IMG/VR virus record: IMGVR_UViG_3300045988_183936
Coordinates: 2,626 to 66,625 of that record
Reading direction: 5' to 3' (one strand)
Length of the DNA: 64,000 nucleotides
DNA from: a virus
Shown: positions 1-27,367 of the stretch, one piece after another
How the letters are laid out: each line of letters begins with the position of its first letter
How positions within the stretch are numbered: position 1 is the stretch's first letter
Position numbers and translations under genes: made by a program
The notes under the pieces: model-generated
The model's database searches: none
What the model was told of the DNA's origin: nothing
Seen by the model: the letters and a program-made list of their open reading frames with translations, nothing else

Positions 1-7
1 GCCTGCC

Positions 8-970
8 GTGTCTACGCGGTATAAGGCTACCCTTCTTGTCCCTTCCAAGGATGCCGAAATGTGTCAGGAACTGCTGGATATGCCTTGTGGCGAGGAGCAT
101 ATTCCCGCTGTGGAGTCCGGTATTGGCAAGTATGCCGGTGTTCGTTGCTTCGGCCTGACGTTCCCTGATGGCTATACCGCAACCGTCACTGTTTGCTCTG
201 ATGACAAGGGATTCTATGTCAATCCCGTCCTCTGGAATGAGGAAATGTCTGATGTCATGTGTCTGGCTTCTGAAAGCGAGCTGGAGGGAATCTACACCTT
301 TGATTACTGCGACAATGTGTATGTCATGGAAGTCGTCAAAGATACGTCCACACCGGCGCTCCACGCAACTACTATCAGAATTCCTGCTGTGGTCGCAACG
401 AAGTATATCAGCTATATGCAGGGCGAGAATGTTCCCAACAATATCATCTATGCGACAAATGTCGTTATCGCTGAGTATTCCAACAAGTTTGACAACGGCT
501 TCACCGCCGTCCTTCAGATTATCCGAAGGGAAGCTGAAGTTGTTGCGAATCTCGCACTGCATGATGCGAACGGCATCAACGTCTGGAACATGGATGAGGA
601 CAGGCTGCTGTTGTGCGTCAGAAAATTCAACTACGGTAACGGCACTTACGAGGTCGAAGTGACGGATGAGACAGCGAACAGCACCGAAAAGGAGAGTTAT
701 TGGACGGAAATCCGTCACGATTTCCGCGAAGATTCTCCCGTTGGCTACGGCGATGTTATCACCGCCGTTTCCATTGATGGTTGGCGCACGCCTGAAGACG
801 ATGCCGAGGGCGAGGTCATTGCCCGTGTTTTCCTGACCAAGAAAGGTGATGTGGTTATTGATTATATCAATGCCATTGCCCGCATTGATGTGCTGGCACA
901 GGAGGCTATCGACGAAACCGTGAAGGAACTGCGCGAGCAGTTCGTCAGCGAGGATGGCTCAGATGAGTAG
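8..970 (+). CDS. hypothetical protein (320 aa); its 3' end overlaps the start of a MazF-like toxin gene
   Basis: Long ORF in the same orientation as the whole block; no recognisable motif. May begin upstream of the window. Confidence 0.45.
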   Translation: MSTRYKATLLVPSKDAEMCQELLDMPCGEEHIPAVESGIGKYAGVRCFGLTFPDGYTATVTVCSDDKGFYVNPVLWNEEMSDVMCLASESELEGIYTFDYCDNVYVMEVVKDTSTPALHATTIRIPAVVATKYISYMQGENVPNNIIYATNVVIAEYSNKFDNGFTAVLQIIRREAEVVANLALHDANGINVWNMDEDRLLLCVRKFNYGNGTYEVEVTDETANSTEKESYWTEIRHDFREDSPVGYGDVITAVSIDGWRTPEDDAEGEVIARVFLTKKGDVVIDYINAIARIDVLAQEAIDETVKELREQFVSEDGSDE

Positions 971-1307
971 ACCGAAAAGAGGCGATATCATTATCGCCAA
1001 ATTCGACCCCACTGATGGGGCGATGAAGTTTGGTGCTACAAGCACCCTTCTCGCCGTAAGCAACGATACGCTGCACGGAGTAACAGATTTCGTCTGGGTG
1101 TGTCCGTTGTCCTACGAAACTGAGTACGGCCCATACCATGTTATACTCGATGAGAAGACGTGTCCTCCTCGTAGCGGAACCGTCCTGTGTGAGTATGTAA
1201 GCTATTTCAACATCATGGCGAACAAGTACGATGTTGTAGGCCATCTGCCCGATGAGGTTCTCGCCAAGGTGCGTTCTGTTCTCTGTGATATTTTTTCTTG
1301 TTCTTGA
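954..1307 (+). CDS. MazF/PemK-family toxin (endoribonuclease-like)
   Basis: N-terminal RGDIIIAKFDPTDG, LLAVSND and VWVCPLSYETE motifs match the PemK/MazF fold pattern. Start may be the ATG at 963. Overlaps the upstream ORF, as in toxin-antitoxin coupling. Confidence 0.55.
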   Translation: MAQMSRPKRGDIIIAKFDPTDGAMKFGATSTLLAVSNDTLHGVTDFVWVCPLSYETEYGPYHVILDEKTCPPRSGTVLCEYVSYFNIMANKYDVVGHLPDEVLAKVRSVLCDIFSCS

Positions 1308-1313
1308 ACTGTG

Positions 1314-1343
1314 AAAAAGCTCCCTTCGGGGAGCTTTTTCTTT
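1314..1343 (+). terminator. intrinsic terminator
   Basis: aaaaaGCTCCCttcgGGGAGCttttt hairpin followed by a T-run. Confidence 0.7.
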
Positions 1344-1354
1344 ACCTGAAATCA

Positions 1355-1549
1355 TTGACAAAACATCAAACTGTGGTAGTATAGAATTATAATTACGAAG
1401 CTATTTTTATAAAGGAGATTATCTCCGTTTTCCAAGTCACCTTAAAGAATCAAGACAGTTATCCCAATCTTGGGATGGCTGTCTTTTTATATATATACAT
1501 ACATTTGTGTTCCCGTAAGTCCTTCAAGGCTGGGAGAAAGGAGAAACAA
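1355..1549 (+). promoter_or_regulatory. repeated promoter-leader-terminator cassette, copy 1
   Basis: TTGACA(1355)-16nt-TGgTAGTAT extended -10. Leader palindrome GGAGATtATCTCC (1414-1426). Terminator hairpin agacagttatccc/gggatggctgtct (1453-1484) plus TTTTT. Conserved downstream block catacatttgtgttcccgtaagtcctt...gggagaaaggagaaa, then a GTG start. Confidence 0.75.
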
Positions 1550-2713
1550 GTGAAAACCAAAGTTATCTTCGAGCGCACTGGCAAAAACATGGAGGCTATC
1601 CGTGAGGAAGTCATCGTCAACGGCGAAATCACTAAGGATGGTTTTGCTGTAATGATGGCAGCTACCAACGGCGATGGCACATTCGTACCGGCTGTTGTCG
1701 GTCTCCATGAGGTGAACGCTGCTGATGAGGCTGTGTATGCGAAGCTGGTCGGCATCGAATCCTGCGAAGCTAATCTCATCGCAACGTGCAGCGCGGACGT
1801 CCTCGTGGGGCGTTTCGTGAACGCGAACGGTGCGTGGGACGAGCTGCCCGTCAAGGGTCAGGCGCAGAGTGGTACTGTCCGTGTCGGCATCCCCTTTGTC
1901 TACGGACTCTACAACTTTACGCCGGTACGTAACGGGGTGAACAAGAAGATTTCGTGGTGGATTTCCCGTCAGGGTATCGGCCACGCGCTTTACTGCTTCA
2001 CCTCCAACTACACCGCCGAAATCGGCTATCAGTTCCAGCACATCAGCAGCTATATCAGTATGTTCGAGGCACAGTTCGGCACCATCGACGGTAAGCCGGC
2101 GTCCGTACAGATTCCTGCTGGTGGGCGGAATGTGGATGCCATGCGCTTTAAGGTCTACCCCAATGTGGGTCCTGCCTACATCGTCGAGGTTCCCTCCGGC
2201 GAGGTCGATAACATCGACGAGTGGCTGAGTGAGCACATGGAGAGTGATGCCACATTCGTGGAGCTGAAAAGCACCGATTCCACCTCCAAAAACACGTCCT
2301 CTGACGACAATGCCGACATCCGCGTGCGGGATATCTGCGGCGATAAGTGCCAGTGCTATGTCTACTACGACAAGGCTTCCGGACAGGACAAGATGCGTTT
2401 TTGGCTGAGAGCCGCGTTCCCCCGTCCCGCCGATATGATTGAGGTACGCACGGCGCTGAAAGCGAACTTCGGCAGCGGCGCCGGCACATTCACCTATGAT
2501 GATGGTTCCTTCGATGTCATCATTGAGAAGCTGGTGCCGTTCGCGTTCTCCAATGCAGATTTGGAGAACTTCGCTGACAATGCAGTCACCCTCATCGAGA
2601 ATGTCCTGCATACCGAGGCTACCAGCGTGAGCTGGAACGCCGGCCATTGTGAGAGCGATGATGATGCGCTGCTTACTGAGAAAGAGCGGAGCATCGTAAG
2701 CCGGCAGGCGTAA
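1550..2713 (+). CDS. hypothetical protein (about 388 aa, GTG start)
   Basis: RBS gggagaaaggagaaacaaGTG. First gene after cassette copy 1. The antisense 424-aa ORF was rejected. Confidence 0.55.
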   Translation: MKTKVIFERTGKNMEAIREEVIVNGEITKDGFAVMMAATNGDGTFVPAVVGLHEVNAADEAVYAKLVGIESCEANLIATCSADVLVGRFVNANGAWDELPVKGQAQSGTVRVGIPFVYGLYNFTPVRNGVNKKISWWISRQGIGHALYCFTSNYTAEIGYQFQHISSYISMFEAQFGTIDGKPASVQIPAGGRNVDAMRFKVYPNVGPAYIVEVPSGEVDNIDEWLSEHMESDATFVELKSTDSTSKNTSSDDNADIRVRDICGDKCQCYVYYDKASGQDKMRFWLRAAFPRPADMIEVRTALKANFGSGAGTFTYDDGSFDVIIEKLVPFAFSNADLENFADNAVTLIENVLHTEATSVSWNAGHCESDDDALLTEKERSIVSRQA

Positions 2714-2726
2714 GGAGGTGTCTTCA

Positions 2727-2879
2727 GTGAACACAGTGATTTTTCCTGAGGACGTCGCCAACGCGGTACAGTCGGCTTACCTCCAAACCGAAGACGAGGA
2801 TGTCAGAAATTTGCTTTTGTCCGTCGGCGCCGAGCTTCTTGATATCTCTCCCGATGAGATGTTTGAGATGATTCGTTGA
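2727..2879 (+). CDS. small hypothetical protein (50 aa)
   Basis: GTG start 8 nt after an AAGGAGG RBS. Not in the ORF track because it is under 60 aa. Confidence 0.35.
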   Translation: MNTVIFPEDVANAVQSAYLQTEDEDVRNLLLSVGAELLDISPDEMFEMIR

Positions 2880-2904
2880 CCGTTGAAAGAAAGGAGAAAC
2901 AGAA

Positions 2905-3174
2905 ATGACCCTGAAGGAGTTTGTTGAAAAAAACGGTAAAGAGAGATGCGTTAGCAAGATGAGACAGTGGCAGTCTGTTACCATTGGCTTCATCGACGCC
3001 GATGGAAAAGACGATGAGACGGAATTCGACGTATACCGCGTGGACACTTCCGCCGGTCTTGAAGAGCTGGCGCAGCTTTTCAACGATTTCTGTGCTGAAA
3101 ACAATTTCCCCACGAACACGGTGCAGTCGGTTCGTGTGGTGAAGAGCGCGGACGACTACTCTGACCTTGCGTAA
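2905..3174 (+). CDS. hypothetical protein (89 aa)
   Basis: gaaagaaaggagaaacagaaATG RBS. Confidence 0.55.
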   Translation: MTLKEFVEKNGKERCVSKMRQWQSVTIGFIDADGKDDETEFDVYRVDTSAGLEELAQLFNDFCAENNFPTNTVQSVRVVKSADDYSDLA

Positions 3175-3206
3175 ATGCTCTGAAAAAAAGAAAGGAGAAA
3201 ATAATC

Positions 3207-4052
3207 ATGGATTCCAAGAAAAAGACAAACAAGACTCGTTGTAGGGCTTGCCCCGCATCCGGTTTTTGCTCCGATGTCTGCTACAATAGGGATGTTCCTG
3301 ATGCCACCTGTGCTCATGCCGTGAAGTACGATAAGCTGAATAAGCGTGTCGCTTCGCTGGAGGGACAGGTTGAGACGGTGAAGTTCATGCCGCTGAAGCA
3401 GCGAGACGCCGAGCTGGAAAAACTGTGGGATGAGTTCACGGATGTCCCGATGAATCCGGACACCGAGAAGATGGAGGATGCGTTCCTCCACTTCCCCGCC
3501 GGCACTCCTCGTGAAGACATCTGGCACTGGTTCGATGAACGCTATTCCAAGGGCATCGCAGCGTTGCTGTATGGCCGGGGTGAGGACAACACCTCCACCA
3601 TCGCTGCGCTGACCTACCTGAATGAGCTTTGCTGCGAGTGCGATTCTGAACTGTGCGCCTTTGCGGATGCTTCCGGCATCTGCCGTGCCCCGTTCATCAC
3701 CGGAGCAGCACCGCGTATCCGTGAGGATGGTTGCGATGATTTCTGTGGCGTAGGCAATGGCTTCTGCGCTCCCCGCGCAAAGGTCGAAAACTCAGAGGCT
3801 GGTCGCTACATGGTATTCATGGATAGCGCCTACATCCGAGACGCACAGATTTACTGCGGCAACCTCAACGAAGATGTCAATTCCGTGGCAAATGAGGATA
3901 GCTGGCGTGATTCCAGCGGTCCGATTTTGCTTATCGACAAGGAGGTCAGCAGCCTTGATGAACTGCGGAACACCGTGAAGGAGATATATCCTGAAGTGGC
4001 GTTCGCCGCTCTGAATGTCATGCGGGTCAGCGGCAAAGCCGTCCGTTTGTAA
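3207..4052 (+). CDS. hypothetical Cys-rich protein (281 aa)
   Basis: aaagaaaggagaaaataatcATG RBS. Multiple CxxC pairs. Confidence 0.55.
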   Translation: MDSKKKTNKTRCRACPASGFCSDVCYNRDVPDATCAHAVKYDKLNKRVASLEGQVETVKFMPLKQRDAELEKLWDEFTDVPMNPDTEKMEDAFLHFPAGTPREDIWHWFDERYSKGIAALLYGRGEDNTSTIAALTYLNELCCECDSELCAFADASGICRAPFITGAAPRIREDGCDDFCGVGNGFCAPRAKVENSEAGRYMVFMDSAYIRDAQIYCGNLNEDVNSVANEDSWRDSSGPILLIDKEVSSLDELRNTVKEIYPEVAFAALNVMRVSGKAVRL

Positions 4053-4066
4053 GGGAGGTGCCCACA

Positions 4067-4519
4067 ATGGATGCCTTTTTGGAAAAGCTCAAAAAGTCTT
4101 TTGTCGAACGTTTTACGTCTTTGATGGAAGACAACGGCGACTCCGTGACGGAAGCTGCAAGGATTATCGGTGTCGCTCCGGAAGCTGTCTCAACATGGCT
4201 GCGTGGGCGTATCGTGCCGAGCATTGATTACTTCGCTAAAATTGCGGATGTTTACAATGTCTCTGTTGATTATCTGCTGGGTCAATCTGAGACCCAGCAG
4301 GTAAAAGACATCCCCGATGAGGCGGCATATCCGGCTGTTCCCGCACGAGCCTTCTACAACTCGGCGTTGCAGCTTATGGCAAAGCAGAATTCTCTCATTG
4401 CCCAACAGAATGCATTGCTGCAGCAACAGAACACCATTCTGGCGGCGATGCAGCAGAAGGCCACTGTTGAGAACACATCTCTGCCTTCGACAGATGTGCC
4501 TCTTGGTTTGCCATTTTGA
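4067..4519 (+). CDS. XRE-family helix-turn-helix transcriptional regulator
   Basis: HTH signature TEAARIIGVAPEAVSTWLRGRIVPSIDYFAKIADVYNVSVDYLLGQ. RBS aagggaggtgcccacaATG. Confidence 0.6.
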   Translation: MDAFLEKLKKSFVERFTSLMEDNGDSVTEAARIIGVAPEAVSTWLRGRIVPSIDYFAKIADVYNVSVDYLLGQSETQQVKDIPDEAAYPAVPARAFYNSALQLMAKQNSLIAQQNALLQQQNTILAAMQQKATVENTSLPSTDVPLGLPF

Positions 4520-4592
4520 GCAGAAAGGAGATTTTATAACCTTGGAGGGGGCTGTTGTTTGCAGCAGTCCTCTCTTTCTATACATAGTCTGT

Positions 4593-4622
4593 TTGACAGA
4601 GAGCGTACAAATGGGCTATAAT
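4593..4622 (+). promoter_or_regulatory. sigma-A-type promoter
   Basis: TTGACA-17nt-TATAAT upstream of the 4653 gene. Confidence 0.55.
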
Positions 4623-4652
4623 AGAGTTGAAAATTGAAAGGAGGATACAACT

Positions 4653-4868
4653 ATGGAAGAATTCGTAAAGGGCGTATCCAAAACTTGCCTATATGAAGAC
4701 CCTCACTGTGACGAAGAGGATGCGGAAATGGACCGTCGGATTTCGTCGGTAGCCTTTGAAGCCTATCAACGGGCAAAAATGAAAGGTATTCCTGTTGCTC
4801 GCTATGATGCAGAGAAAAAGTGTGCCTATTTACTGTATCCGGATGGGAGAATCGAGTATGTCAAATGA
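4653..4868 (+). CDS. small protein (71 aa), possible antitoxin partner of the downstream zeta-like kinase
   Basis: gaaaggaggatacaactATG RBS. Its end overlaps the start of the P-loop protein gene. Confidence 0.45.
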   Translation: MEEFVKGVSKTCLYEDPHCDEEDAEMDRRISSVAFEAYQRAKMKGIPVARYDAEKKCAYLLYPDGRIEYVK

Positions 4869-5538
4869 GAAACAGCGGAAACCTTGCATTATCGTTTTCG
4901 CTGGGCCTAACGGGTCAGGTAAAAGCTCACTTACAAGTAGAGTAGATATACTACCCCCGTATATCAACGCAGACGACATCAAAAAAGAAACTGGATGCAG
5001 CGATTTGGAAGCGGCACAGAAGGCTGATGCAATGCGCTTACAGTGTGTAGAATGGGGCGAAGATTTTACCTTCGAGACAGTTTTGTCCACGAATAAAAAA
5101 CTGGAATTTCTAAAATATGCAAAAGAGCATGGGTATTTCATAAAAGGCTTTTTCGTTCTTACGAAAGACGCATCCGTAAACGTACTTCGTGTATGGGAAC
5201 GTGTTCAATCTGGAGGCCACGACGTACCTGAAGAAAAGATTCGGTCTCGGTACGAAAAGTCTTTGGCAAGGGTTCAGGCCTTTGTTGACCTATGCGACAT
5301 CTGCCATATTTATGACAACTCCGGCTCTTCAACGGATAGAATATTCAAGAAGGCACATGGCGACACCTATAAATGCAGGGAAAATGCTTTCTGGAGCAAA
5401 CAGGAAATCTGTGACCTCGTAGGCATCAAAAGCAATAATGTTGGAGAACTTCTGCTTTCCGACTATGAGAAGAAGCTCTGTAATTCACTTAATAGTGCTA
5501 CTGAGACTGAGGAGGACGTAGATAGAAATGACAAGTAG
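4858..5538 (+). CDS. zeta-toxin-like P-loop kinase (AAA/zeta family)
   Basis: Walker A FAGPNGSGKSS. ETVLS, GYFIKGFFVLT and RVWERVQSGGHDVPEEKIRSRY resemble the zeta-toxin/UNAG-kinase fold. Confidence 0.45.
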   Translation: MSNEKQRKPCIIVFAGPNGSGKSSLTSRVDILPPYINADDIKKETGCSDLEAAQKADAMRLQCVEWGEDFTFETVLSTNKKLEFLKYAKEHGYFIKGFFVLTKDASVNVLRVWERVQSGGHDVPEEKIRSRYEKSLARVQAFVDLCDICHIYDNSGSSTDRIFKKAHGDTYKCRENAFWSKQEICDLVGIKSNNVGELLLSDYEKKLCNSLNSATETEEDVDRNDK

Positions 5539-6238: not shown

Positions 6239-6240
6239 GA

Positions 6241-6462
6241 ATGGATTATCCATATATCCGCGCATGGAACAGGCTCATGAACGCCACTTCGGACGTCATC
6301 GAAAATGAAGTCGCGGCTGCCCGTAAAGAGAAGGCTCCACCGACTTCAGTTTACAAGCGTAAGGATGGTGTGTGGGAGATTTTCGAGGGAATCGTCCGTG
6401 GCGAAACGAAGCAGCAGCTTGCTGAACTTGTAGCAAAGATGGAAAAGCGCTCTAAGAAGTAA
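6241..6462 (+). CDS. hypothetical protein (73 aa)
   Basis: Internal ATG in ORF 6064..6462, immediately after the previous stop. Followed by a terminator. Confidence 0.4.
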   Translation: MDYPYIRAWNRLMNATSDVIENEVAAARKEKAPPTSVYKRKDGVWEIFEGIVRGETKQQLAELVAKMEKRSKK

Positions 6463-6465
6463 TTA

Positions 6466-6494
6466 AAGAGGCCCGAAAGGGCTTCTTTTTTTTT
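6466..6494 (+). terminator. intrinsic terminator
   Basis: aagaGGCCCgaaaGGGCttc followed by T9. Confidence 0.7.
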
Positions 6495-6506
6495 GGCTCT
6501 GTAATG

Positions 6507-7271: not shown

Positions 7272-7313
7272 GCATTCCCGCACGCTATACTCAAGAAGAA
7301 AGGAGAAAGCACC

Positions 7314-18341: not shown

Positions 18342-18355
18342 AAGGAGAAAAACAT

Positions 18356-19474: not shown

Positions 19475-19486
19475 CAGCAAAAGCGA

Positions 19487-21568: not shown

Positions 21569-21646
21569 GCTTATCCTGAAAGGAGAAGAGAGGCATGGAG
21601 CCTCTTTTCTTGCTTTCAGGACCGAAAGCAAGAAAGGAGAAAACAT

Positions 21647-22070
21647 CATGACTCACAACTATGAGAACGCCAAGTTCTTTAATCACGAGAGCTATAAGGC
21701 GCTTTGCGCTAAGGTCGGTGAGTGCATCAAAAACGGCGTCCAGTACGCTGATAAGATGCTCGACAACATCGAACGGCGCTGCGCCGGTGCTTTCCTCGAC
21801 TATGTGACGACCGTTGATATGAGCGAAACTCGCATCATCATCGCCCATAATCGTCTCGAAGGCGAAGACCTCATCGACACGCTGCAGACTATCGACGCGG
21901 GACGCCGGTCGGCACACGAGGCAGCTATGGCCGGATGCAGCATTCTCAACCGAATGGCTTTCGCCAACGGTATTGACCCCGTGTTCACTGGCAATCCTGA
22001 AGACCGTTTGCAGGTGGCAGATTTCTGCCTTGAATTCACTGTTGAAATTTTCAAGAACCGGCGCAAGTAA
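21647..22070 (+). CDS. hypothetical protein (141 aa) between the ATPase and VWA genes
   Basis: gaaaggagaaaacatcATG RBS. Confidence 0.5.
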
Positions 22071-22091
22071 ATAAGAAAGGAGAAATGACGC

Positions 22092-24320
22092 ATGGACCAG
22101 AAATCTATCTGGAGGCAAATCCGTGTGGGTGCCAATGAAATGAGCGAGAAGCTCACGGATGCTGACATCTACACCAGTGAAGCGTTTCGGAGTCATGTGC
22201 AGGCGACAGTCGATTCGATGACGAAGGACCTTGACAAGCACATCTCCGTTTCTCTGATGCATAACCCAAACTCAGACATCACCGCCTGTACTGATGGGAA
22301 TAATCTTTATCAGAATACGGCGAATAGTGTCATCACGTGGTATAAGCTCCCCTCCTCACGATTCGCAACGGTTATGGGTATCGTCTATCACGAGTTGGCC
22401 CACATCCGATTCCACGACTTCCGCGCCGATGCGCTGGCAGACAAGGAACTGGAAGAGAACGGCACACTCTACGGACGGATGCCTGAACCGGACGACGAGA
22501 CAGAACTGGATGAGATGAAGGAGGCGCTGAAGCATCCTGAATACCGCAAGGTGTTCAAGTCGCTGCGGGACGAACTCGTCAACTGCATCATCGACGCACA
22601 CGACGAGGAGCGTATGAGCGACTACTACGGCGGCATTGTTGCACGTGGTATAGAGATGGCAGCATCTTCCCTTCAGGGACAGCTTCACACGCTGGAAGGC
22701 TATACGAATAACAAGAATGAGCCGCTGTCTATCATGACAAGCCTCGTTCTCCAGTTCGCACGCTTCGGTGAAATTCTCGTTGCGGATGAGCAGACGCTCT
22801 ATACCAATGAGTACGCCAAGAAGCTGACAGACATCTCACAGGCCATTGAGCTTGCCACCAACACGGATAACCCTAAAGAGCTGTATGCTCAAATCAATGT
22901 GATGCTTCTCTTTATGTGGCCTTACATCAAGGATGCAATAGATAAGTGTGACAAGCAGCAGAATGCTCAGGCAGGCCAAGGCCAGCAGGGGCAAGGTCAG
23001 CAGTCCGGCTCCGACCAGAACGGTCAGGGTGGGCAGCAGGGCCAGTCCTCTTCCGGCGGCAACTCCGGCGGCGGTCAAAACAGCCAGAACCAGCAGGGCG
23101 GCGGAGGTGTCTCCCAGCCCAGCGCAAATGCCATTCAGCAGGTGCTCCAACAAATCGCTCAGGGCGCACAGAATGGCGGCGGCTCTCAGATACCCAAGAA
23201 CCAGAAGGCTTCCAACGTAGCCAAGCAAGCTACCAAGGATGCTCAGTCTGCTGGTAAGAAAAAGGGCAAGAAGGGCGGCAGCGGTTCCGGCGGTAATGAT
23301 GCCAATGAGGGCAACGTTCCCGCTGCTGTGACTGGTAAGAACGGCGATGGAAAGGATAAGAATGAGAAGCAGGAGCAGGCTGACAATATGTTGGCAAATG
23401 TTCTGCAGACCATCATTTCCTCCGTTGCAGGTGACATGGCCGAAGCCCAGATGGAACAGGATTTGAAGTCCCAAATCATCGCTGATGTTGACATCATGGA
23501 CCGCAGCTCCACGCACAAGGGTCATAAAATCGACGTCAAACGCGAGGTTGAAGTAACACCCGCAAACATCAAGCTCTACGGAGAAATGATGGAGGATGTG
23601 AAACAGTATTCCAAGCGTTTGGCGAAGCTGATGCAGCAGGAACTGAAAGACCTGCAAGATGGCGATGTCCGCAGAAATCGGATGTACGGTAGGGATATCG
23701 TAGCCAATGATATGTGGCGTCCCGACTGCCGGTACTTCAGCGACACCAAGCTGCCGCAGGACCTGCCTGACATGGCCGTGGCTGTTCTCGTTGACCAGTC
23801 CGGCTCCATGTGCGGACAGCGCATGGGCGCCGCTATGAAGGCCACCATGCTCCTGCATGACTATGCAGAGCGTGTTCATGTTCCTGTCGCTGTGTACGGC
23901 CACAACGTGACCATGCATGGTAGGGTCAACCTGTTCGTCTATACGGACTTCCTGAAGGCTGGTAAGCGTGACAAGTATCGCCTTGCCAAGCTCTCCACCG
24001 GAGGTTGTAACCGTGACGGTGCAGCTCTGGAGGTCGTTGCGAACCTGCTGAATGCGAGACCTGAGCGCACGAAGCTCCTCATTATCATTTCGGATGGCAA
24101 GCCGAATGATGATTCCTATGGTGGAGATTCTGCGGCGAAGGACATCAAAGACATCGTAGCCCGCAATCGCCGGCGCGGTGTTGAGATTGTTGCAGCAGCT
24201 ATCGGCGACGACAAAGCGTACCTCAAGAAGATTTACGGCGACCAGTTCCTTGACATTACTGACCTGTCCACCTTCCCCAAGGCAATGGTCAAAATCGTCA
24301 AGAAACGGCTGAAGGTCTAA
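22092..24320 (+). CDS. CobT-like von Willebrand factor A (VWA) domain protein with an HExxH motif and a Gln/Gly-rich linker, 742 aa
   Basis: MIDAS VLVDQSGSM. IIISDGKPND. HELAH at the N-terminus. Low-complexity QGQQGQGQQSGSDQNGQGGQQG between 22960 and 23120. Confidence 0.6.
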   Translation: MDQKSIWRQIRVGANEMSEKLTDADIYTSEAFRSHVQATVDSMTKDLDKHISVSLMHNPNSDITACTDGNNLYQNTANSVITWYKLPSSRFATVMGIVYHELAHIRFHDFRADALADKELEENGTLYGRMPEPDDETELDEMKEALKHPEYRKVFKSLRDELVNCIIDAHDEERMSDYYGGIVARGIEMAASSLQGQLHTLEGYTNNKNEPLSIMTSLVLQFARFGEILVADEQTLYTNEYAKKLTDISQAIELATNTDNPKELYAQINVMLLFMWPYIKDAIDKCDKQQNAQAGQGQQGQGQQSGSDQNGQGGQQGQSSSGGNSGGGQNSQNQQGGGGVSQPSANAIQQVLQQIAQGAQNGGGSQIPKNQKASNVAKQATKDAQSAGKKKGKKGGSGSGGNDANEGNVPAAVTGKNGDGKDKNEKQEQADNMLANVLQTIISSVAGDMAEAQMEQDLKSQIIADVDIMDRSSTHKGHKIDVKREVEVTPANIKLYGEMMEDVKQYSKRLAKLMQQELKDLQDGDVRRNRMYGRDIVANDMWRPDCRYFSDTKLPQDLPDMAVAVLVDQSGSMCGQRMGAAMKATMLLHDYAERVHVPVAVYGHNVTMHGRVNLFVYTDFLKAGKRDKYRLAKLSTGGCNRDGAALEVVANLLNARPERTKLLIIISDGKPNDDSYGGDSAAKDIKDIVARNRRRGVEIVAAAIGDDKAYLKKIYGDQFLDITDLSTFPKAMVKIVKKRLKV

Positions 24321-24330
24321 CTACAACTAA

Positions 24331-24358
24331 AGAGCCACCCTTCGGGGTGGCTCTTCTT
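24331..24358 (+). terminator. probable intrinsic terminator
   Basis: agaGCCACCCttcgGGGTGGCtcttctt. The T-run is weak. Confidence 0.45.
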
Positions 24359-24374
24359 GAAAGGAGATAATACT

Positions 24375-24611
24375 ATGGATTTAGGTTACATTGCTCCCTG
24401 CCCCGTGTGTGGTGGCAAAATCAAGCTGTATTCCCACTGTGGCAAGCCCGATTGTAAGGCTGTATGTCAGAGTTGCAAAAAGGGGTTTCCGTTCCACGCA
24501 AACCTGAAGACCTATGCCGGCACAAAAATCTATGCCAGCAGTATCAGGAAAAGTGTGCGGATGTGGAACAACACGGTTTCCAAGGAAGTTCTTGCTGATG
24601 TTGTTCTTTAA
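24375..24611 (+). CDS. Lar-family restriction alleviation protein (zinc-ribbon)
   Basis: APCPVCGG...CQSC...VRMWNNTV matches the Lar pattern CPFCGG...AWNRR. gaaaggagataatactATG RBS. Confidence 0.55.
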   Translation: MDLGYIAPCPVCGGKIKLYSHCGKPDCKAVCQSCKKGFPFHANLKTYAGTKIYASSIRKSVRMWNNTVSKEVLADVVL

Positions 24612-24633
24612 GCCCATTTGCTGCAGGAAGGAG

Positions 24634-24662
24634 TTGATTTTCTGCATATAAAGATGTATAAT
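24634..24662 (+). promoter_or_regulatory. sigma-A-type promoter
   Basis: TTGATT-17nt-TATAAT upstream of the fic gene. Confidence 0.5.
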
Positions 24663-24686
24663 AATGTGCAGAAAGGAGCTGGTGTT

Positions 24687-25733
24687 ATGAGAAAGTTTGA
24701 TTATTCTTTCCTCGATAACGGGCTGCTTCCTGCAAGCCTTGTGAACATCACGAGCAAAATCTACTCTCTTCGTACTGAAGCCGGCTTCCGTAAGCAGGAG
24801 TTTGGAAAAGTCTTCACTGAACTGGAATCCATTGCGCGAGTTCAGTCAGTAAAGAGCTCCAACGCCATTGAGGGCATTGTGACCAGCGACAAGCGCATTG
24901 CGGAAATCGTAAACCACAGCAGTGCGCCTCTGAACCATGATGAGGCGGAAATTGCCGGATACAGAGATGCACTCAACGCTGTGCATTCAGGATATGAGTA
25001 CCTGTCTTTCGGCGTTCCTGACATTCTGCGGCTCCATGAAACCATGATGGCAGTCGCAGGCGACGAGAACGGTGGGCAGTACAAAACGGATGACAATGTG
25101 ATTCTGGAAGTCGCGGCGGATGGCACGCGGCGTGTGAGGTTTCGTCCCACACCTGCGGCAGAGACACCGGCTACTATGGAGCAACTGGAACTGGCCTATT
25201 TGGATGCCTGTTCCAACTCTAATATCAACCAGCTTCTTCTTATTCCCTGCGTTATTTTGGACTTCCTTTGTATCCATCCATTCCGTGACGGCAACGGCAG
25301 AATGTCGAGGTTGCTCTCACTTCTGCTGCTCCACAAAAACGGCTTCGATGTAGGAAAGTACATTTCTTTCGAGGAACAAATCAACCAGCACAAGGCGTAT
25401 TATTACGACGCACTGGAGCAATCCTCGAAGGGCTGGATGGAGAACAACAACGACTATGCGCCATTTATTCAAAACTTCTTGTCCATACTGTATCAGTGCT
25501 ATAAGGAGTTGGATAAGCGGTTTGCAGTCGTCAATGGGAAGAAAATCACGAAGATGACGCGAATCGAAGCTACGGTACTTGGCAGCCTGATGCCAATTTC
25601 CAAAGCGGAGATATGCGCCATTCATCCTGATGTAAGCCCGTCCACCGTGGAGGCTGTGCTTGGACGCATGGTGAAGGAAGGGAGCATTAAACGTATCGGA
25701 ATGTCCAAGAAGGCACGATATGTTAGAGCCTGA
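24687..25733 (+). CDS. Fic family protein (class II, with internal inhibitory SxxxEG motif)
   Basis: Canonical Fic motif HPFRDGNGRMSR. N-terminal SNAIEG matches the (S/T)xxxE(G/N) alpha-inh. Confidence 0.8.
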   Translation: MRKFDYSFLDNGLLPASLVNITSKIYSLRTEAGFRKQEFGKVFTELESIARVQSVKSSNAIEGIVTSDKRIAEIVNHSSAPLNHDEAEIAGYRDALNAVHSGYEYLSFGVPDILRLHETMMAVAGDENGGQYKTDDNVILEVAADGTRRVRFRPTPAAETPATMEQLELAYLDACSNSNINQLLLIPCVILDFLCIHPFRDGNGRMSRLLSLLLLHKNGFDVGKYISFEEQINQHKAYYYDALEQSSKGWMENNNDYAPFIQNFLSILYQCYKELDKRFAVVNGKKITKMTRIEATVLGSLMPISKAEICAIHPDVSPSTVEAVLGRMVKEGSIKRIGMSKKARYVRA

Positions 25734-25768
25734 TTAAAGTCTATTTAGACAAGAAAGGAGAAAGCACA

Positions 25769-25978
25769 ATGACAGCCAAGCTGAAAAGTGATGCGTTGAG
25801 AGTTGTCAAGAGACTCCGTTGCTATGGCACGGACGCTGAAGACAACTTCGGCTGCGGCGATAAGCGGTGCAAGTACCGAGATGTGGACGGTGCCTGCAAC
25901 ATTAACAGCCTTGAAGCTGATGCTGCCGAAGTGATAGAGAAATTGTTGAAGGAGGTTGAAAAGTTTGAACATCGCTGA
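25769..25978 (+). CDS. small hypothetical protein (69 aa)
   Basis: aagaaaggagaaagcacaATG RBS. Confidence 0.45.
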   Translation: MTAKLKSDALRVVKRLRCYGTDAEDNFGCGDKRCKYRDVDGACNINSLEADAAEVIEKLLKEVEKFEHR

Positions 25979-27329
25979 TGTGGTAATGAAATCCCGCAAT
26001 GTCGAATCGTTCAGCAACCTCCTCCCTGCTGCGTCTGTCACATCAGAGAAAGCAAAGGCAGTTGCCAGTCGGAACGGATATATGGCGCCCTATACAGCCG
26101 ATGAACTGCGGAAGAAGTTTCATCTAACCGACGACATCATTGAGAACCTCTACTACTGCTGCGGCTTTACCCCGTTTTATTACTGGGATAAGGATAAGGT
26201 CATATTCCCCTGCAACAGTCTTACAATGGCAGCCGACGGTGAAGATAAAACGCCTGAAATCCGAGGGGCTGTTGAGCAACTGAAGAAGAAAATTGCCTCC
26301 GGCAACTGTAACTTCATCATCACGGCACTCAACGACCGGATGCGGATAGAATATCTGAAGAAACTCGTTGATGAGGGCTTTGATGGTGCTTACAAACTGT
26401 TCTACAATGTCTACCCCTTTTCCGATTACGGATGCTCCGCACTCGGACGGGATGGTATACTGAAGCTCAAAAGCATGAAAACGCCGGAACAGGTTCAGGC
26501 AACGGAGAAGGGGCTCAGGAAGTATCCTGACACACTGACGGTTTACCGTGGCGCCGGCGATGAAAGCGCAAGTCTGGAGGAAGCGTTCTCTTGGACGCTG
26601 GACCCTGCCGTGGCCGTGTTCTTCGCCACACGCTTCCCGTCTGACAATGCGAAGGTATTTCGGGCTACAGTCGAAAAAGCCTCTGTCATTGAGTATTTCG
26701 AAGGTGTGGAGGCTGAAATTATCGTATCTCCTGATGACATCAAGGAGGTTGAAGACTTTCCCCTCTATGGTATCGACTGGCTCAATGAGGCCGTGGATGA
26801 CGGCGCGATAGATGACTTCTGGCTCTATCAGAGGACTGCCGACTATGATGCCGTTCCTTTCCAAATGGCAAGCAAACTACACGGAAAGGCTCATGCTGGC
26901 CGTGTCCTGTTCATGTGTATGCTGTTGGCATATATGAAGGGTCTGGACTTGGAAGACAAGGAGATTTTGATTGATGCCGCACTGTACCATGACACAGGTA
27001 GATGCAGTGATTCAGAGGACAACACCCACGGCGCCGAGAGCGCGAAGATGCTGCAGGAAGCGTATCCTGATACTGACCCCATCACTCTGTTCCTGATGGA
27101 GTATCATTGCCGTCCCGATAAGGAAGGCTATGAGTTCATCGAGAAACATTGGTTGGATAAGCAAGATGCGCTGCGAGTCAAAAGCCTCTTTGACATCTTC
27201 AAGGATGCCGATGGTCTTGACCGCGTGCGGCTCGGTAATTATGAGTTGGATATGTTCCAGCTTCGTACCGAAGAAGCTCGCAAGCTGCCGCAAATCGCAA
27301 AAATAACTGAAGACCAACTGAAATTCTAA
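25965..27329 (+). CDS. HD-domain phosphohydrolase-like protein (C-terminal HD domain)
   Basis: H..LLAYMKGLDLEDKEILIDAALYHDTGR...HG..SA HD signature. TTG start is uncertain (25956, 25965 or 25986). Confidence 0.55.
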   Translation: MNIADVVMKSRNVESFSNLLPAASVTSEKAKAVASRNGYMAPYTADELRKKFHLTDDIIENLYYCCGFTPFYYWDKDKVIFPCNSLTMAADGEDKTPEIRGAVEQLKKKIASGNCNFIITALNDRMRIEYLKKLVDEGFDGAYKLFYNVYPFSDYGCSALGRDGILKLKSMKTPEQVQATEKGLRKYPDTLTVYRGAGDESASLEEAFSWTLDPAVAVFFATRFPSDNAKVFRATVEKASVIEYFEGVEAEIIVSPDDIKEVEDFPLYGIDWLNEAVDDGAIDDFWLYQRTADYDAVPFQMASKLHGKAHAGRVLFMCMLLAYMKGLDLEDKEILIDAALYHDTGRCSDSEDNTHGAESAKMLQEAYPDTDPITLFLMEYHCRPDKEGYEFIEKHWLDKQDALRVKSLFDIFKDADGLDRVRLGNYELDMFQLRTEEARKLPQIAKITEDQLKF

Positions 27330-27333
27330 ACTG

Positions 27334-27367
27334 AAAGCACCTCTCGAAAGAGAGGTGCTTTTTTTGT
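27334..27367 (+). terminator. intrinsic terminator ending the plus-strand array
   Basis: aaaGCACCTCTCgaaaGAGAGGTGCttttttt. Confidence 0.75.

What the first reader, a model, noticed from the sequence alone, without database searches (positions are those of the whole stretch)
1..27367. 27-kb unidirectional array of about 45 small unknown genes with a uniform RBS: a leading-region-like anti-defence or accessory island of a mobile element
All genes are on the plus strand. Most are under 300 aa, and many are translationally coupled. Nearly all carry the same GAAAGGAGAAA RBS. The recognisable genes are of the kinds enriched in conjugative-element leading regions and phage early regions: a Lar-family restriction alleviation protein, a Fic protein, two toxin-antitoxin-like pairs, two XRE regulators, a MoxR/VWA pair, an HD-domain protein and many Zn-ribbon small proteins. 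The array ends at an inverted-repeat-rich gap. A tRNA lies 4 kb further on. No phage structural gene, relaxase or integrase is present in the window.
Basis: inference. Interest (0 to 1): 0.7.

Follow-up and report, generated by a model that had tools for sequence, protein, structure and literature searches.

The report
Repeated promoter-leader module drives plasmid operons
The 27-kb run of small unknown genes is part of about 94 kb of same-direction operons on a ~190-kb conjugative plasmid of human-gut Clostridia, and each operon starts with the same near-invariant promoter, leader and terminator module, which points to one shared on/off switch for a very large cargo of host-manipulating genes.

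Summary
There are 39 plus-strand genes, not 45. The exact RBS GAAAGGAGAAA occurs 18 times against 0.01 expected, and only on this strand in this region. The array is cut into operons by four copies of a ~200-nt module: an upstream terminator, a TTGACA/TGgTAGTAT promoter with a perfect TATAAT at the start site, an invariant ~55-nt leader with an SD-mimic/anti-SD hairpin, a 13-bp intrinsic terminator, and then an optimal RBS. The same module occurs at 13 sites, always co-oriented, across ~94 kb of a probably circular 192-kb relative. That relative carries ParA/ParB, a RepL-like protein, a type IV coupling protein and a VirB4-like ATPase, so it is a conjugative megaplasmid that IMG/VR files as viral. 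The closest known analogue is the multi-operon establishment regulon of the Bacillus plasmids pLS20 and p576. This module is different: it has no Reg576 operator, is not an ssDNA promoter, and carries a leader terminator. "Leading region" could not be tested because no oriT or relaxase was located. "Anti-defence" has no direct hit: Lar is not supported and the Fic protein matches the defence family SoFic. The last gene encodes an ADP-ribosyltransferase fused to an HD/PDE domain. Verdict: a new variant of a known kind.

The parts
1..1307 (+). End of an upstream operon: the C-terminal 320 aa of a 412-aa unknown protein (8-970) and a PemK/MazF-like toxin (963-1307).
   Evidence: Gene calls on the source contig. 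PemK_toxin 9.6e-10. phrog_1936 MazF-like.
1312..1549 (+). Module copy R1: upstream terminator 1312-1344; promoter TTGACA-16-TAGTAT with TG at 1355-1382; TATAAT at 1388-1393; hairpin 1 (GGAGAttaTCTCC) at 1414-1426; leader terminator at 1452-1485 plus T-run; RBS at 1536-1546.
   Evidence: Repeat families D1, D4, D7, D10 and D12. Alignment A1. Promoter and terminator scan.
1550..6462 (+). Operon 1, 10 genes. Includes a 387-aa unknown first gene, a Cys-rich 281-aa protein, XRE regulator 4067-4519, a consensus promoter at 4593-4622, small gene 4653-4868 with Zeta-toxin-like P-loop kinase 4858-5538, and a 236-aa unknown.
6465..6707 (+). Module copy R2: terminator 6465-6488; promoter 6508-6535; hairpin 1 at 6567-6579; leader terminator 6607-6638; RBS 6694-6704.
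6708..13603 (+). Operon 2. Includes a Zn-ribbon protein at 6708-7271 (not Lar), XRE with C-terminal Zn-ribbon at 7934-8377, a small intra-operon terminator at 8368-8385, unknowns, and a 468-aa unknown at 12197-13603.
10175..11551 (+). IS200/IS605-family insertion: TnpB at 10242-11360 plus about 190 nt of 3' flank (a likely omega-RNA region). Absent from all relatives, which join 10174 directly to 11552.
   Evidence: OrfB_IS605 5e-29, Cas12f1-like_TNB 1e-25, HTH_OrfB_IS605. BLAST junctions.
13638..14096 (+). Module copy R3, preceded by terminator 13638-13665 and short direct repeats at 13751-13879. Promoter 13919-13946; hairpin 1 at 13978-13990; leader terminator 14015-14046; RBS 14082-14092. 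This copy lacks the conserved stem next to the RBS.
14097..19408 (+). Operon 3, 11 small or medium genes. Includes DUF4314 at 17051-17269 and two paralogous unknown proteins at 17301-18341 and 18356-19408.
   Evidence: DUF4314 2.6e-24. Internal 68% nucleotide similarity.
19441..19690 (+). Module copy R4: terminator 19441-19468; promoter 19487-19514; hairpin 1 at 19546-19558; leader terminator 19583-19620 with compensatory stem changes; RBS 19674-19684.
19691..27329 (+). Operon 4: 625-aa AAA-like ATPase; DUF3232 at 21648-22070; 742-aa VWA/CobT_C protein at 22092-24320; Zn-ribbon protein at 24375-24611; Fic/SoFic-like protein at 24687-25733; 69-aa protein; ART + HD/PDE fusion protein at 25965-27329.
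27334..27620 (.). Convergence point of the plus-strand and minus-strand blocks: terminators at 27334-27361 (+) and 27587-27619, with palindromes such as TGCAAACTATAGTTTGCA between them. GC skew changes sign here.

Best explanation
The window's first 27.4 kb is four and a half operons of a much larger regulon. The regulon has at least 13 co-oriented operons over about 94 kb. It lies on a ~190-kb, probably circular, conjugative megaplasmid of human-gut Clostridia. Homologues of one array protein are named Agathobacter and Clostridia.

Every operon begins with the same module:
(i) a terminator that ends the previous operon;
(ii) a strong sigma-A promoter, TTGACA, 16 nt, extended -10 TGgTAGTAT;
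(iii) a perfect TATAAT lying on the predicted start site;
(iv) an invariant ~55-nt leader containing the hairpin AAAGGAGA-uua-UCUCC, which pairs a Shine-Dalgarno mimic with an anti-SD;
(v) a 13-bp GC-containing hairpin followed by U6-8, about 70-105 nt after the start, which is a canonical intrinsic terminator;
(vi) usually a conserved small stem, then an SD that is 9-11 nt complementary to the 16S 3' end.
Genes inside the operons reuse that same optimal SD.

Proposed working (inferred). RNA polymerase starts efficiently at all module promoters. By default most transcripts end at the leader terminator. Read-through is controlled at the invariant leader or promoter-proximal region by one shared factor or condition, either antitermination or attenuation. 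Repression by the array-encoded XRE proteins may act on top of this. When the switch opens, all operons fire together and their messages are translated at maximal efficiency.

The cargo includes two toxin-type modules, a Fic/SoFic-like AMPylase, an ART + HD/PDE enzyme, an AAA/VWA pair and about 25 proteins with no family. It is best read as plasmid establishment, host-manipulation and addiction functions. That makes it functionally analogous to the establishment regulons of pLS20 and p576, but on a far larger scale.

Shown: the anatomy, copy number, co-orientation, conservation, plasmid backbone and domain content. Inferred: the start site, termination in vivo, the existence of a trans factor, and the timing and biological role.
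For: - Four module copies lie in the window. About 88 consecutive positions are invariant while the flanks diverge.
- nhmmer finds 82 module hits and 39 distinct full-length variants in IMG/VR loci.
- Module copies are always on one strand within each contig or locus.
- There are 13 module sites in the 191,977-bp relative, spanning 131 kb through the contig ends to about 33 kb.
- That contig has a 104-nt exact terminal overlap.
- The promoter TTGACA-16-TAGTAT with TG is found in all four copies, and the four leader hairpins are the four best terminator-like sites in 1-20 kb.
- The consensus fold keeps both hairpins. Hairpin 2 has 3 pairs with compensatory changes and further G-U/A-U switches.
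- The leader RNA folds better than shuffles (z = -3.6), and UCUCCGUUUUCC is predicted to pair with the downstream RBS.
- The exact RBS 11-mer is confined to module-driven arrays (0.45-0.73 per kb). It occurs 0 times in 20.6 kb of adhesin/par/rep, 3 times in 21.4 kb of T4SS genes and 0 times in 30 kb of other plus-strand genes.
- The window has 18 copies against 0.01 expected.
- Plasmid backbone: ParB_N 1e-14, RepL, T4SS-DNA_transf 6e-40, TraG-D_C, P-loop_TraG/AAA_10, CHAP + Phage_lysozyme2, plus a ParA-like Walker-A protein next to ParB recognised by eye, with Topo III and TED/SpaA/TQ adhesins in the window.
- Cassette turnover occurs at modules: one relative lacks exactly 6651-13918, the span from R2 to R3.
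- Literature analogue: several variable operons each preceded by a conserved regulatory sequence in pLS20/p576 (PMC8708921, PMC6294495). Leading regions are adapted for translational efficiency (PMC13478746).
Against: - No transcript data exist. The start site, termination efficiency and read-through are all predictions.
- No antiterminator-like protein (NusG/LoaP, Q, N or BglG type) was detected in the window.
- I found no conserved alternative (antiterminator) pairing that competes with hairpin 2.
- A default-off leader terminator fits poorly with an establishment role that needs immediate expression in a naive recipient.
- No known anti-defence family is present in the window.
- oriT and relaxase were not located, so the position in the transfer order is unknown.
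- The ~88-nt invariance could partly reflect gene conversion among copies rather than selection on every base.
- All backbone evidence comes from relatives at 93-99% identity, not from the window's own contig beyond 64 kb.
Confidence: 0.55

Rival explanations
1. Zygotic induction only, as in p576 EGeRS2. The module promoters are constitutively strong and are shut off in established cells by a plasmid repressor, for example one of the two XRE proteins encoded in operons 1 and 2. The genes then fire transiently after transfer. The leader hairpin and U-run act merely as an insulator or a leaky damper, not as a regulated step.
For: p576 has four strong sigma-A promoters repressed by an autoregulated repressor encoded inside the regulon (PMC6294495, PMC8708921). 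Here two XRE/HTH_3 genes sit inside module-driven operons, and a small terminator follows the second one. At least 13 consensus promoters with optimal RBSs would be very costly if never repressed.
Against: The Reg576 operator (dual TTATCCCnnTTATCCC) is absent. Only single TTATCCC heptamers occur, inside hairpin 2. No clear palindromic operator flanks -35/-10. The most conserved part is the transcribed leader, and the hairpin-1 loop tolerates a 1-nt insertion, which fits RNA better than a DNA operator. A 13-bp stem with U6-8 is not expected to be leaky.
Confidence: 0.22
2. It is the early, host-takeover region of a large (~190 kb) phage or phage-plasmid. The repeats are early promoters, as in T4, T5 or SPO1, and the small genes are early proteins.
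For: All close relatives are filed in IMG/VR as viral genomes. Large lytic phages do have many near-identical early promoters and arrays of small unknown genes (own knowledge). Phage-type domains occur in the arrays of relatives: YopX, YqaJ, RecD2-like and RecG helicases, and Phage_lysozyme2.
Against: About 130 of the 192 kb of the best relative were read. ORFs were scanned selectively, mostly the larger real-looking ones. No terminase, portal, capsid or tail domain appeared. Instead there are a T4CP, a VirB4-like ATPase, VirB2/VirB6-like proteins, ParA/ParB and a RepL-like protein. There is no nucleotide match in 50,697 phage records, and protein matches for the one array protein tested (the AAA-like ATPase) are weak. 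Gut Bacillota conjugative megaplasmids are known to be mis-filed in viral databases (PMC12934698).
Confidence: 0.06
3. The short (~105 nt) terminated leader transcript is itself the product. It would be a multi-copy small RNA whose anti-SD segment (UCUCCGUUUUCC) pairs in cis or in trans with the uniform GAAAGGAGAAA sites and tunes translation of the whole gene set, or titrates a host factor.
For: A strong promoter followed by a strong terminator about 100 nt later is the anatomy of an sRNA gene. The leader carries both an SD mimic and an anti-SD. The predicted pairing with the downstream RBS is in the minimum-free-energy fold. The RBS it would target is shared by 18 genes in the window.
Against: Every module sits directly in front of an operon with a conserved spacing to its RBS, which argues for a cis leader. 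The pairing (4+5 bp with a bulge) is no stronger than 16S pairing. No Rfam family matches.
Confidence: 0.08
4. The repeats are mainly recombination scars or portable cassette junctions with no special regulatory logic. Duplicated promoter segments are kept identical by gene conversion, and they promote shuffling of cargo cassettes.
For: A relative has lost exactly the segment between two modules. Metagenome contigs break at modules. IS elements (TnpB, IscB) sit in or beside the arrays.
Against: The downstream half of the module has diverged and shows compensatory changes while the upstream ~88 nt stay invariant. Uniform gene conversion would not produce that pattern. The consensus promoter, terminator and RBS features are all functional-looking and correctly ordered.
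Confidence: 0.07

Closest known systems
Establishment regulon of Bacillus pumilus plasmid p576 (EGeRS2 promoters with the Reg576 repressor; PMC6294495, PMC8708921)
   Same: It is a Gram-positive conjugative plasmid. Several operons of mostly unknown, variable genes are each preceded by a conserved sequence that contains a strong sigma-A promoter. A regulator is encoded inside the regulon. The proposed role is a burst of expression for establishment.
   Different: p576 has 4 promoters at 50-68% identity. Here there are at least 13 sites with ~88 nt invariant, covering ~94 kb. The dual TTATCCC operator is absent and no RHH Reg576 homologue or ardC was found in the window. This module adds an invariant leader and a strong intrinsic terminator before the first gene.
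EGeRS1 regulon of pLS20 (PMC8708921)
   Same: Five operons confined to one sector of the plasmid are each headed by a conserved structured sequence. That sequence blocks read-through from upstream. The gene content is highly variable.
   Different: EGeRS1 is 420-750 bp, GC-rich and heavily structured, with no detectable sigma-A promoter. This module is ~200 nt and AT-rich, with a consensus promoter and two simple hairpins.
Leading-region anti-defence islands with Frpo ssDNA promoters (Samuel et al. 2024, PMC11541004)
   Same: Co-oriented arrays of small, mostly unknown genes lie on a conjugative element. Toxin-antitoxin-type genes are present. There is strong translation signalling (compare PMC13478746).
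   Different: No known anti-defence gene, SSB or PsiB is present in the window. The promoter is not inside an ssDNA hairpin. Position relative to oriT is unknown. The arrays cover half the plasmid rather than about 30 ORFs.
Promoter-proximal processive antitermination (lambda PR'-qut-tR'/Q, HK022 put RNA, conAn of pLS20; PMC8191782)
   Same: A strong promoter is followed within ~100 nt by an efficient terminator. There is a -10-like element at the start of the transcript and a conserved promoter-proximal RNA element.
   Different: No Q, N, NusG-like or ConAn1-like protein was identified. conAn2 is a single ~280-nt element per operon. Here a ~55-nt leader is repeated at 13 or more promoters. 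No experimental evidence of antitermination exists.
'Hodor' conjugative megaplasmids of gut Bacillota (preprint PMC12934698)
   Same: They come from the human gut and from a Bacillota host. They are large conjugative plasmids mis-filed in viral databases. They carry ParA/ParB, VirB4, VirD4, giant surface proteins, TnpB elements and Phage_lysozyme2. An HD-type (MOBH-like) candidate relaxase is accompanied by a separate helicase.
   Different: Hodors are 211-389 kb, 44-47% GC and use Rep_3. This lineage is ~190 kb, ~51% GC and RepL-like, with TED/SpaA/T-Q adhesins. A search of the preprint text found no occurrence of 'promoter' or 'leading region'.

Membership tests
Leading-region anti-defence island (PMC11541004) | Lies within roughly the first 30 ORFs on the leading side of oriT. 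| not testable with these tools
   No oriT or nic site and no clear relaxase were found in the window or in the selectively scanned ORFs of about 130 kb of the best relative. The only lead is an HD TraI_2-like 308-aa protein plus a RecD2-like helicase in relatives.
Leading-region anti-defence island (PMC11541004) | Genes are co-oriented on the transferred strand. | tested here: inconclusive
   Co-orientation is complete, but the transferred strand is unknown. The orientation also matches the GC-skew and replication direction.
Leading-region anti-defence island (PMC11541004) | Enriched in known anti-defence genes (ArdA, ArdB/KlcA, ArdC, Acr, SSB, PsiB, orphan MTase). | tested here: not met
   None was found in the window with Pfam, NCBIfam, PHROGs or PADLOC. 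An orphan N6_N4 MTase exists elsewhere on the relative, outside the module arrays.
Leading-region anti-defence island (PMC11541004) | Frpo/ssi-type single-stranded DNA promoter. | tested here: not met
   The ssDNA fold of a module is no more stable than shuffles (z = -0.85), and -35/-10 are not inside a long hairpin. It is a canonical duplex promoter.
p576-type establishment regulon (EGeRS2/Reg576) | Several operons are each preceded by a conserved sequence with a strong sigma-A promoter. | tested here: met
p576-type establishment regulon (EGeRS2/Reg576) | Dual heptamer operator TTATCCCnnTTATCCC next to the promoter. | tested here: not met
   There are zero dual motifs in the window. Single TTATCCC heptamers occur in three leader terminators.
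p576-type establishment regulon (EGeRS2/Reg576) | Autoregulated RHH repressor and ardC inside the regulon. | tested here: not met
   No RHH or ArdC family hit was found in the window. Two XRE regulators are present instead.
pLS20-type EGeRS1 | A 420-750 bp GC-rich, multi-hairpin element without a sigma-A promoter. | tested here: not met
   The module is ~200 nt and AT-rich, with a consensus promoter and two hairpins.
conAn bipartite antitermination (PMC8191782) | A ~280-nt conAn2 RNA flanked by 20-bp inverted repeats, plus a ConAn1 protein at the head of the conjugation operon. | tested here: not met
   The leader is ~55 nt invariant plus a terminator, lacks flanking 20-bp inverted repeats, and is present at 13 sites outside the T4SS operon. 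ConAn1 homology was not searched.
Lambdoid Q-type late promoter | A -10-like pause element in the initial transcribed region and a terminator downstream. | tested here: inconclusive
   TATAAT lies 5 nt after the TAGTAT -10 hexamer, on the predicted start site, and a terminator follows about 70 nt later. The start site and any pausing are not measured.
Lambdoid Q-type late promoter | A Q-family antiterminator protein. | tested here: not met
   No antiterminator family appeared in the Pfam, NCBIfam or PHROGs scans of the window arrays.
Conjugative plasmid | Type IV coupling protein and VirB4-family ATPase. | tested here: met
   Found in relatives at 93-99% identity to the window: PF02534 6.4e-40, TraG-D_C 3.9e-25, P-loop_TraG 8e-16. 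The corresponding part of the window's own contig was not retrievable.
Conjugative plasmid | Replication and partition module. | tested here: met
   ParB_N 1e-14, RepL 23.0 bits against a cut-off of 20.3, and a ParA-like Walker-A protein recognised by eye.
Conjugative plasmid | Relaxase. | tested here: inconclusive
   The only hit is TraI_2 (MOBH-type HD domain), 26.6 bits against a cut-off of 23.9, in a 308-aa protein. About 62 kb of the best relative remain unread.
Tailed phage | Terminase, portal, major capsid and tail genes. | tested here: not met
   None was found among the proteins scanned from the window and from relatives, mostly the larger ORFs. Coverage of the best relative is about 130 of 192 kb.
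Lar restriction-alleviation family (PF14354) | A score at or above the Pfam gathering threshold. | tested here: not met
   15.9 bits (6708-7271) and 13.8 bits (24375-24611) against 28.6.
ADP-ribosyltransferase (R-S-E class), for gene 25965-27329 | ART fold plus a conserved Arg / Ser-x-Ser(Thr) / Glu-x-Glu motif. | tested here: met

The most novel reading that the evidence does not exclude
The invariant promoter-proximal leader (a TATAAT pause-like element plus the SD-mimic/anti-SD hairpin) is the recognition site of a previously undescribed antitermination or riboregulatory system of Firmicute plasmids. This system would make RNA polymerase that starts at any of 13 or more module promoters resistant to the leader terminator. 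About 94 kb of cargo genes would then be wired to one switch, a plasmid-wide "late/early gene" programme comparable to phage Q or N control but used by a conjugative element.
Probability: 0.25. Interest if true: 0.8.

Novelty: new variant of a known kind. Interest (0 to 1): 0.6.

Why it matters
How Gram-positive conjugative plasmids time the expression of their establishment and host-manipulation genes is known for only two Bacillus plasmid types. This lineage offers a natural, extreme case: half of a 190-kb plasmid, 13 or more operons, all headed by one near-invariant ~200-nt module.

- The module is short enough to test directly with reporter fusions.
- It doubles as a search handle that marks every gene of the regulon, so about 100 unknown proteins can be assigned to one co-regulated programme. 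These include an ART + HD/PDE enzyme, a SoFic-like Fic protein and an expanded paralogue family.
- It may be a compact, strong and insulated expression cassette for gut Clostridia, which lack genetic tools.
- It adds another case of conjugative megaplasmids being mis-filed as viruses in metagenome catalogues.

Tried and rejected
- Nucleotide searches of the array against 50,697 phage records and 72,556 plasmid records gave no match.
- Protein searches with the AAA protein gave only weak or partial hits.
- Rfam gave nothing but the tRNA at gathering threshold. In E-value mode it gave only terminator-driven noise.
- GTDB representative genomes gave no match to the module and no close relative of the coupling protein, so no host genome was obtained.
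- An exact look-up of my first PemK gene call failed because the start codon differed from the one on record.
- Walking with the DNA search gained only 517 nt because loci stop at storage boundaries. I switched to the search for related loci.
- The phage reading was rejected after finding the T4CP, VirB4, ParAB and RepL-like genes.
- The Frpo-type ssDNA promoter reading was rejected.
- The Reg576 operator was rejected.
- conAn was rejected on anatomy.
- Lar was rejected.
- A diverged relative carrying a homologue of the last gene has a similar array of small genes but no repeated module, so the module could not be traced beyond this lineage.
- In the metagenome scan, 42 of 73 matches to the short leader pattern were a chance match inside an unrelated coding sequence and were discarded.

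Full report
1. CHECKING THE OBSERVATION

A gene model was built from ORFs and RBS positions. It agrees with the gene calls on record for the source contig. It gives 39 plus-strand genes in 1-27367 and no credible minus-strand gene.
- 29 genes are under 300 aa.
- 11 of 38 junctions overlap and 14 more have gaps of 40 nt or less.
- About 91% of the region is coding.

The RBS claim is real but overstated.
- The exact 11-mer GAAAGGAGAAA occurs 18 times in the 64-kb window, all on the + strand and all inside 1-27367. Dinucleotide-preserving shuffles give 0.01 expected.
- 23 genes have AAAGGAG and 4 more have AAGGAG. The rest are mostly coupled genes with weaker sites.

Pfam results:
- Confirmed: PemK/MazF, Zeta toxin, two HTH_3/XRE proteins, VWA/CobT_C, Fic, HD, DUF4314 and DUF3232.
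- Sub-threshold: the "MoxR" ATPase (AAA_5).
- Not supported: the "Lar" assignment, at 15.9 and 13.8 bits against a cut-off of 28.6.

NCBIfam and PHROGs add nothing functional. PADLOC matches only the Fic protein, to the defence family SoFic (6.7e-34).

The array is punctuated by four copies of a ~200-nt intergenic module at about 1312-1549, 6465-6707, 13638-14096 and 19441-19690. In order, each copy contains:
- a terminator closing the previous operon;
- TTGACA, 16 nt, then TGgTAGTAT (an extended -10);
- a perfect TATAAT five bases further on, which is on the predicted start site;
- an invariant stretch running to GTCACC that includes the hairpin GGAGA-tta-TCTCC followed by GTTTT;
- a short variable linker;
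- a 13-bp hairpin AGACAGTTATCCC/GGGATAGCTGTCT followed by T6-8;
- in three of the four copies, a conserved CCCGTAAGTCCTT...AGGCTGGG stem;
- the RBS and the start codon.

About 88 consecutive positions are identical in all four copies although the flanks are unrelated. An independent consensus scan picks the same promoter in all four copies. It also ranks the four leader hairpins as the four best terminator-like sites in the first 20 kb.

A consensus fold over 16 diverse variants keeps both hairpins. Hairpin 2 shows three pairs with compensatory double changes plus G-U/A-U alternation. Hairpin 1 never varies in its stem, but its loop tolerates a substitution or a 1-nt insertion.

The full leader folds better than shuffles (z = -3.6). 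In the minimum-energy fold, the anti-SD-like UCUCCGUUUUCC pairs with the RBS of the first gene.

No Rfam family matches.

As single-stranded DNA the module is no more structured than shuffles, and -35/-10 are not inside a hairpin. It is therefore not an Frpo-type promoter.

3. WHAT ELEMENT THIS IS

Source and relatives:
- The window comes from a 134.7-kb human-gut metagenome scaffold and starts 2.6 kb from its end. A second assembly breaks exactly at module R2.
- A 39-nt piece of the promoter occurs exactly in 49 stretches of nine IMG/VR "viral" contigs of 9-192 kb, always in one orientation per contig.
- These contigs are 93-99% identical to the window.
- The longest, IMGVR_UViG_3300029310_000398 (191,977 bp), has a 104-nt exact terminal overlap, so it is probably circular.

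Walking along that contig with protein-anchored fetches recovered about 130 kb. In window orientation the map is as follows.
- Module-driven plus-strand arrays run from 131 kb through the ends to about 33 kb. The window corresponds to about 7.3-70 kb.
- A minus-strand block lies at 33-79.6 kb. It holds flotillin, a non-specific nuclease, tRNA-Ser, topoisomerase III, two giant thioester/SpaA/T-Q-ester adhesins, a VWA surface protein, a ParA-like protein, ParB and a RepL-like protein.
- A plus-strand T4SS block lies at 79.6-100 kb. It holds a primase-like protein, VirB2-like and VirB6-like membrane proteins, a CHAP + lysozyme hydrolase, a 917-aa coupling protein (PF02534 6e-40, TraG-D_C 4e-25) and an 892-aa VirB4-like ATPase.
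- Further plus-strand genes without modules lie at 100-131 kb and include an orphan N6/N4 DNA methyltransferase.

No terminase, portal or capsid domain was seen among the proteins scanned, which were mostly the larger ORFs. I therefore read the element as a conjugative megaplasmid that viral catalogues have mis-filed. A recent preprint describes the same situation for other gut Bacillota megaplasmids (PMC12934698).

No clear relaxase was found. The only lead is a 308-aa HD protein with a TraI_2 (MOBH-type) hit next to a RecD2-like helicase in a module-driven operon of relatives. This resembles the relaxase-helicase pair proposed for those megaplasmids.

No GTDB representative genome carries the module or a close T4CP relative. 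Homologues of the last array gene are named Agathobacter and Clostridia.

4. EXTENT AND SPECIFICITY OF THE REGULON

- The best relative has 13 distinct module sites, all on the + strand, at 0.08, 3.7, 8.8, 13.9, 20.0, 26.0, 131.2, 137.1, 148.0, 156.2, 180.0, 183.1 and 186.5 kb. They cover about 94 kb.
- Across all loci held, nhmmer finds 82 hits and 39 distinct full-length variants placed in front of at least about 15 different first genes.
- The uniform RBS is a property of these arrays and not of the plasmid. The exact 11-mer occurs at 0.45-0.73 per kb in module arrays. It occurs 0 times in 20.6 kb (adhesin/par/rep), 3 times in 21.4 kb (T4SS) and 0 times in 30 kb (other plus-strand genes).
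- The leader motif is restricted to this lineage in IMG/VR.
- In public metagenomes it is present in 31 genuine stretches from many independent human-gut assemblies. 42 other matches were a chance hit in an unrelated gene.

The arrays are plastic at module boundaries.
- One relative lacks exactly 6651-13918, the span from R2 to R3.
- Another has an IscB element beside R4.
- The window's TnpB segment (10175-11551) is absent from every relative.

5. HOW IT MOST LIKELY WORKS

Shown: a consensus promoter, an invariant leader, a canonical terminator and an optimal RBS, in fixed order, repeated at every operon head and insulated from the previous operon by another terminator.

Inferred: transcription starts about 7 nt after TAGTAT. 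Most transcripts stop at hairpin 2, about 105 nt downstream. A shared input acting on the invariant leader or promoter-proximal region sets the read-through at all modules together.

Reasons to favour regulated read-through:
- A strong promoter followed by a strong terminator is otherwise self-defeating.
- The most conserved part is transcribed.
- The TATAAT at the start site resembles the sigma-dependent pause element of lambdoid late promoters (own knowledge).

Reasons for caution:
- No antiterminator-like protein was found.
- No competing antiterminator hairpin is evident.
- A default-off design fits an establishment role poorly.

The main rival is pure repressor control (zygotic induction), as shown for p576 (PMC6294495). 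The two array-encoded XRE proteins would be the candidates. The two mechanisms could coexist. The SD-mimic/anti-SD hairpin and its predicted pairing with the first RBS suggest an additional translational layer.

I give 0.55 to the composite statement. The structural part (a multi-operon regulon with a shared module on a conjugative megaplasmid) is about 0.85. Regulated termination is about 0.4. An establishment or host-manipulation role is about 0.35.

6. CARGO

Recognisable products are:
- two toxin-type modules (PemK, and Zeta with its own perfect consensus promoter at 4593-4622);
- two XRE regulators;
- an AAA / DUF3232 / VWA trio;
- a SoFic-like Fic protein;
- DUF4314;
- a pair of unknown paralogues;
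- several zinc-ribbon proteins.

The last gene (25965-27329) was examined further.
- 58 homologues exist. In a 95-kb contig, and in an Agathobacter MAG next to a tyrosine integrase, the homologue is again the last gene of a one-directional array of small unknown genes.
- The family has invariant Y-R-G, S-W and E-x-E residues plus an HD motif.
- The AlphaFold model is confident, with pLDDT 92.6.

An ART fused to a PDE-type HD domain is the catalytic pair that SidE effectors use for phosphoribosyl transfer (own knowledge). Whether this protein does the same, and on what target, is unknown.

Overall the cargo looks like enzymes and small proteins that act on host components. That is compatible with an establishment or anti-defence role but does not demonstrate one.

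7. COMPARISON WITH WHAT IS KNOWN, AND VERDICT

The kind is known from the pLS20 family: several variable operons of a Gram-positive conjugative plasmid, each headed by a conserved regulatory sequence (PMC8708921, PMC6294495). Leading regions of Enterobacterales plasmids are also known to be tuned for translation (PMC13478746) and to hold anti-defence islands (PMC11541004).

This case fails the specific membership tests for EGeRS1, EGeRS2/Reg576, Frpo and conAn (see the table). It differs in three ways:
- scale, with 13 or more operons covering about half of a 190-kb plasmid;
- degree of conservation;
- the leader terminator.

I therefore rate it a new variant of a known kind. It is of moderate to high interest to plasmid biologists, with a testable possibility that the leader defines a new antitermination or riboregulatory system.

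The element is mobile and the region is accessory. "Leading region" is untested, and "anti-defence" is unsupported by any direct hit.

Noticed in passing
window 25965-27329: The last gene of the array encodes a fusion of an ADP-ribosyltransferase-fold domain (invariant R-S-ExE) with an HD/PDE domain. The HD/PDE domain's best structural matches include the PDE domains of Legionella SidE-family effectors. This is the same catalytic pair used for phosphoribosyl transfer. 58 homologues exist in Clostridia/Agathobacter mobile elements, in the two contexts examined as the last gene of a similar array.
   Followed up: yes
window 10175-11551; L005 5758-7242: A TnpB (IS605-family) element with about 190 nt of 3' flank is inserted cleanly in operon 2 and is absent from all relatives. 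A relative carries an IscB (RRXRR, 7e-50) element right next to module R4. OMEGA-type elements seem to target or survive in these arrays.
   Followed up: partly
window 27362-27620: The convergence point between the plus and minus blocks holds perfect palindromes (TGCAAACTATAGTTTGCA, repeated TTTGCAAAC motifs) between two terminators. GC skew flips here. It could be a replication terminus or dimer-resolution site, or another protein-binding site.
   Followed up: no
L092 2642-7128 (IMGVR_UViG_3300030040_000294, 176.5-181 kb); also L006, L034, L035, L048: A family of 340-400-aa proteins with a conserved C-x(2)-DPFG-x-x-R-x-G motif is expanded to at least 7 paralogues. Four are in tandem, and several are the first gene after a module. 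No Pfam hit. The family is not present in the window.
   Followed up: partly
L025 42-1958 and 6690-7616; L008 1721-4042: A RecD2-like helicase (AAA_19/AAA_30, HHH_RecD2) and, one module-driven operon later, a 308-aa HD protein with a TraI_2 (MOBH-type) hit. Together they form a candidate relaxase-helicase pair like the one proposed for 'Hodor' megaplasmids. oriT might lie nearby.
   Followed up: partly
nine IMG/VR contigs (e.g. IMGVR_UViG_3300029310_000398, 191,977 bp): Contigs catalogued as viral genomes carry ParA/ParB, a RepL-like protein, a T4CP and VirB4, and no structural phage gene among the proteins scanned. They are probably conjugative megaplasmids mis-filed as viruses.
   Followed up: yes
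window 45931-51561 and 53351-64000 (minus strand): Two giant surface adhesins with a thioester domain, 7 SpaA-type domains and 5 T-Q ester-bond domains. The second is 3808 aa in the relative. A further VWA surface protein of 974 aa lies just beyond the window in relatives.
   Followed up: partly
window 1386-1413, 6539-6566, 13950-13977, 19518-19545 (minus strand): Each module also contains a minus-strand promoter-like site (TTTATA, 16 nt, TATAAT) that reuses the palindromic ATTATAAT. It would fire back into the upstream, apparently bidirectional, terminator. It is unclear whether this is functional or a by-product of the palindrome.
   Followed up: no
window 4593-4622: A 12/12 consensus sigma-70-type promoter (TTGACA, 18 nt, TATAAT) sits inside operon 1, directly ahead of the small gene and Zeta-toxin pair. 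This toxin module therefore has its own promoter independent of the shared module.
   Followed up: no
IMGVR_UViG_3300029582_000367 (L019, L080, L083): In this 113-kb contig the window-like arrays are followed within about 5 kb by genes that lie at about 100 kb in the 192-kb relative. The whole adhesin/par/rep/T4SS block appears to be missing. This is either a deletion variant or a mis-assembly.
   Followed up: no
window 13751-13879: Four or five short direct repeats (TTTCCCGACTAAAAT-like, 34-68 nt apart) lie between the end of operon 2 and module R3. They are not seen at the other modules.
   Followed up: no
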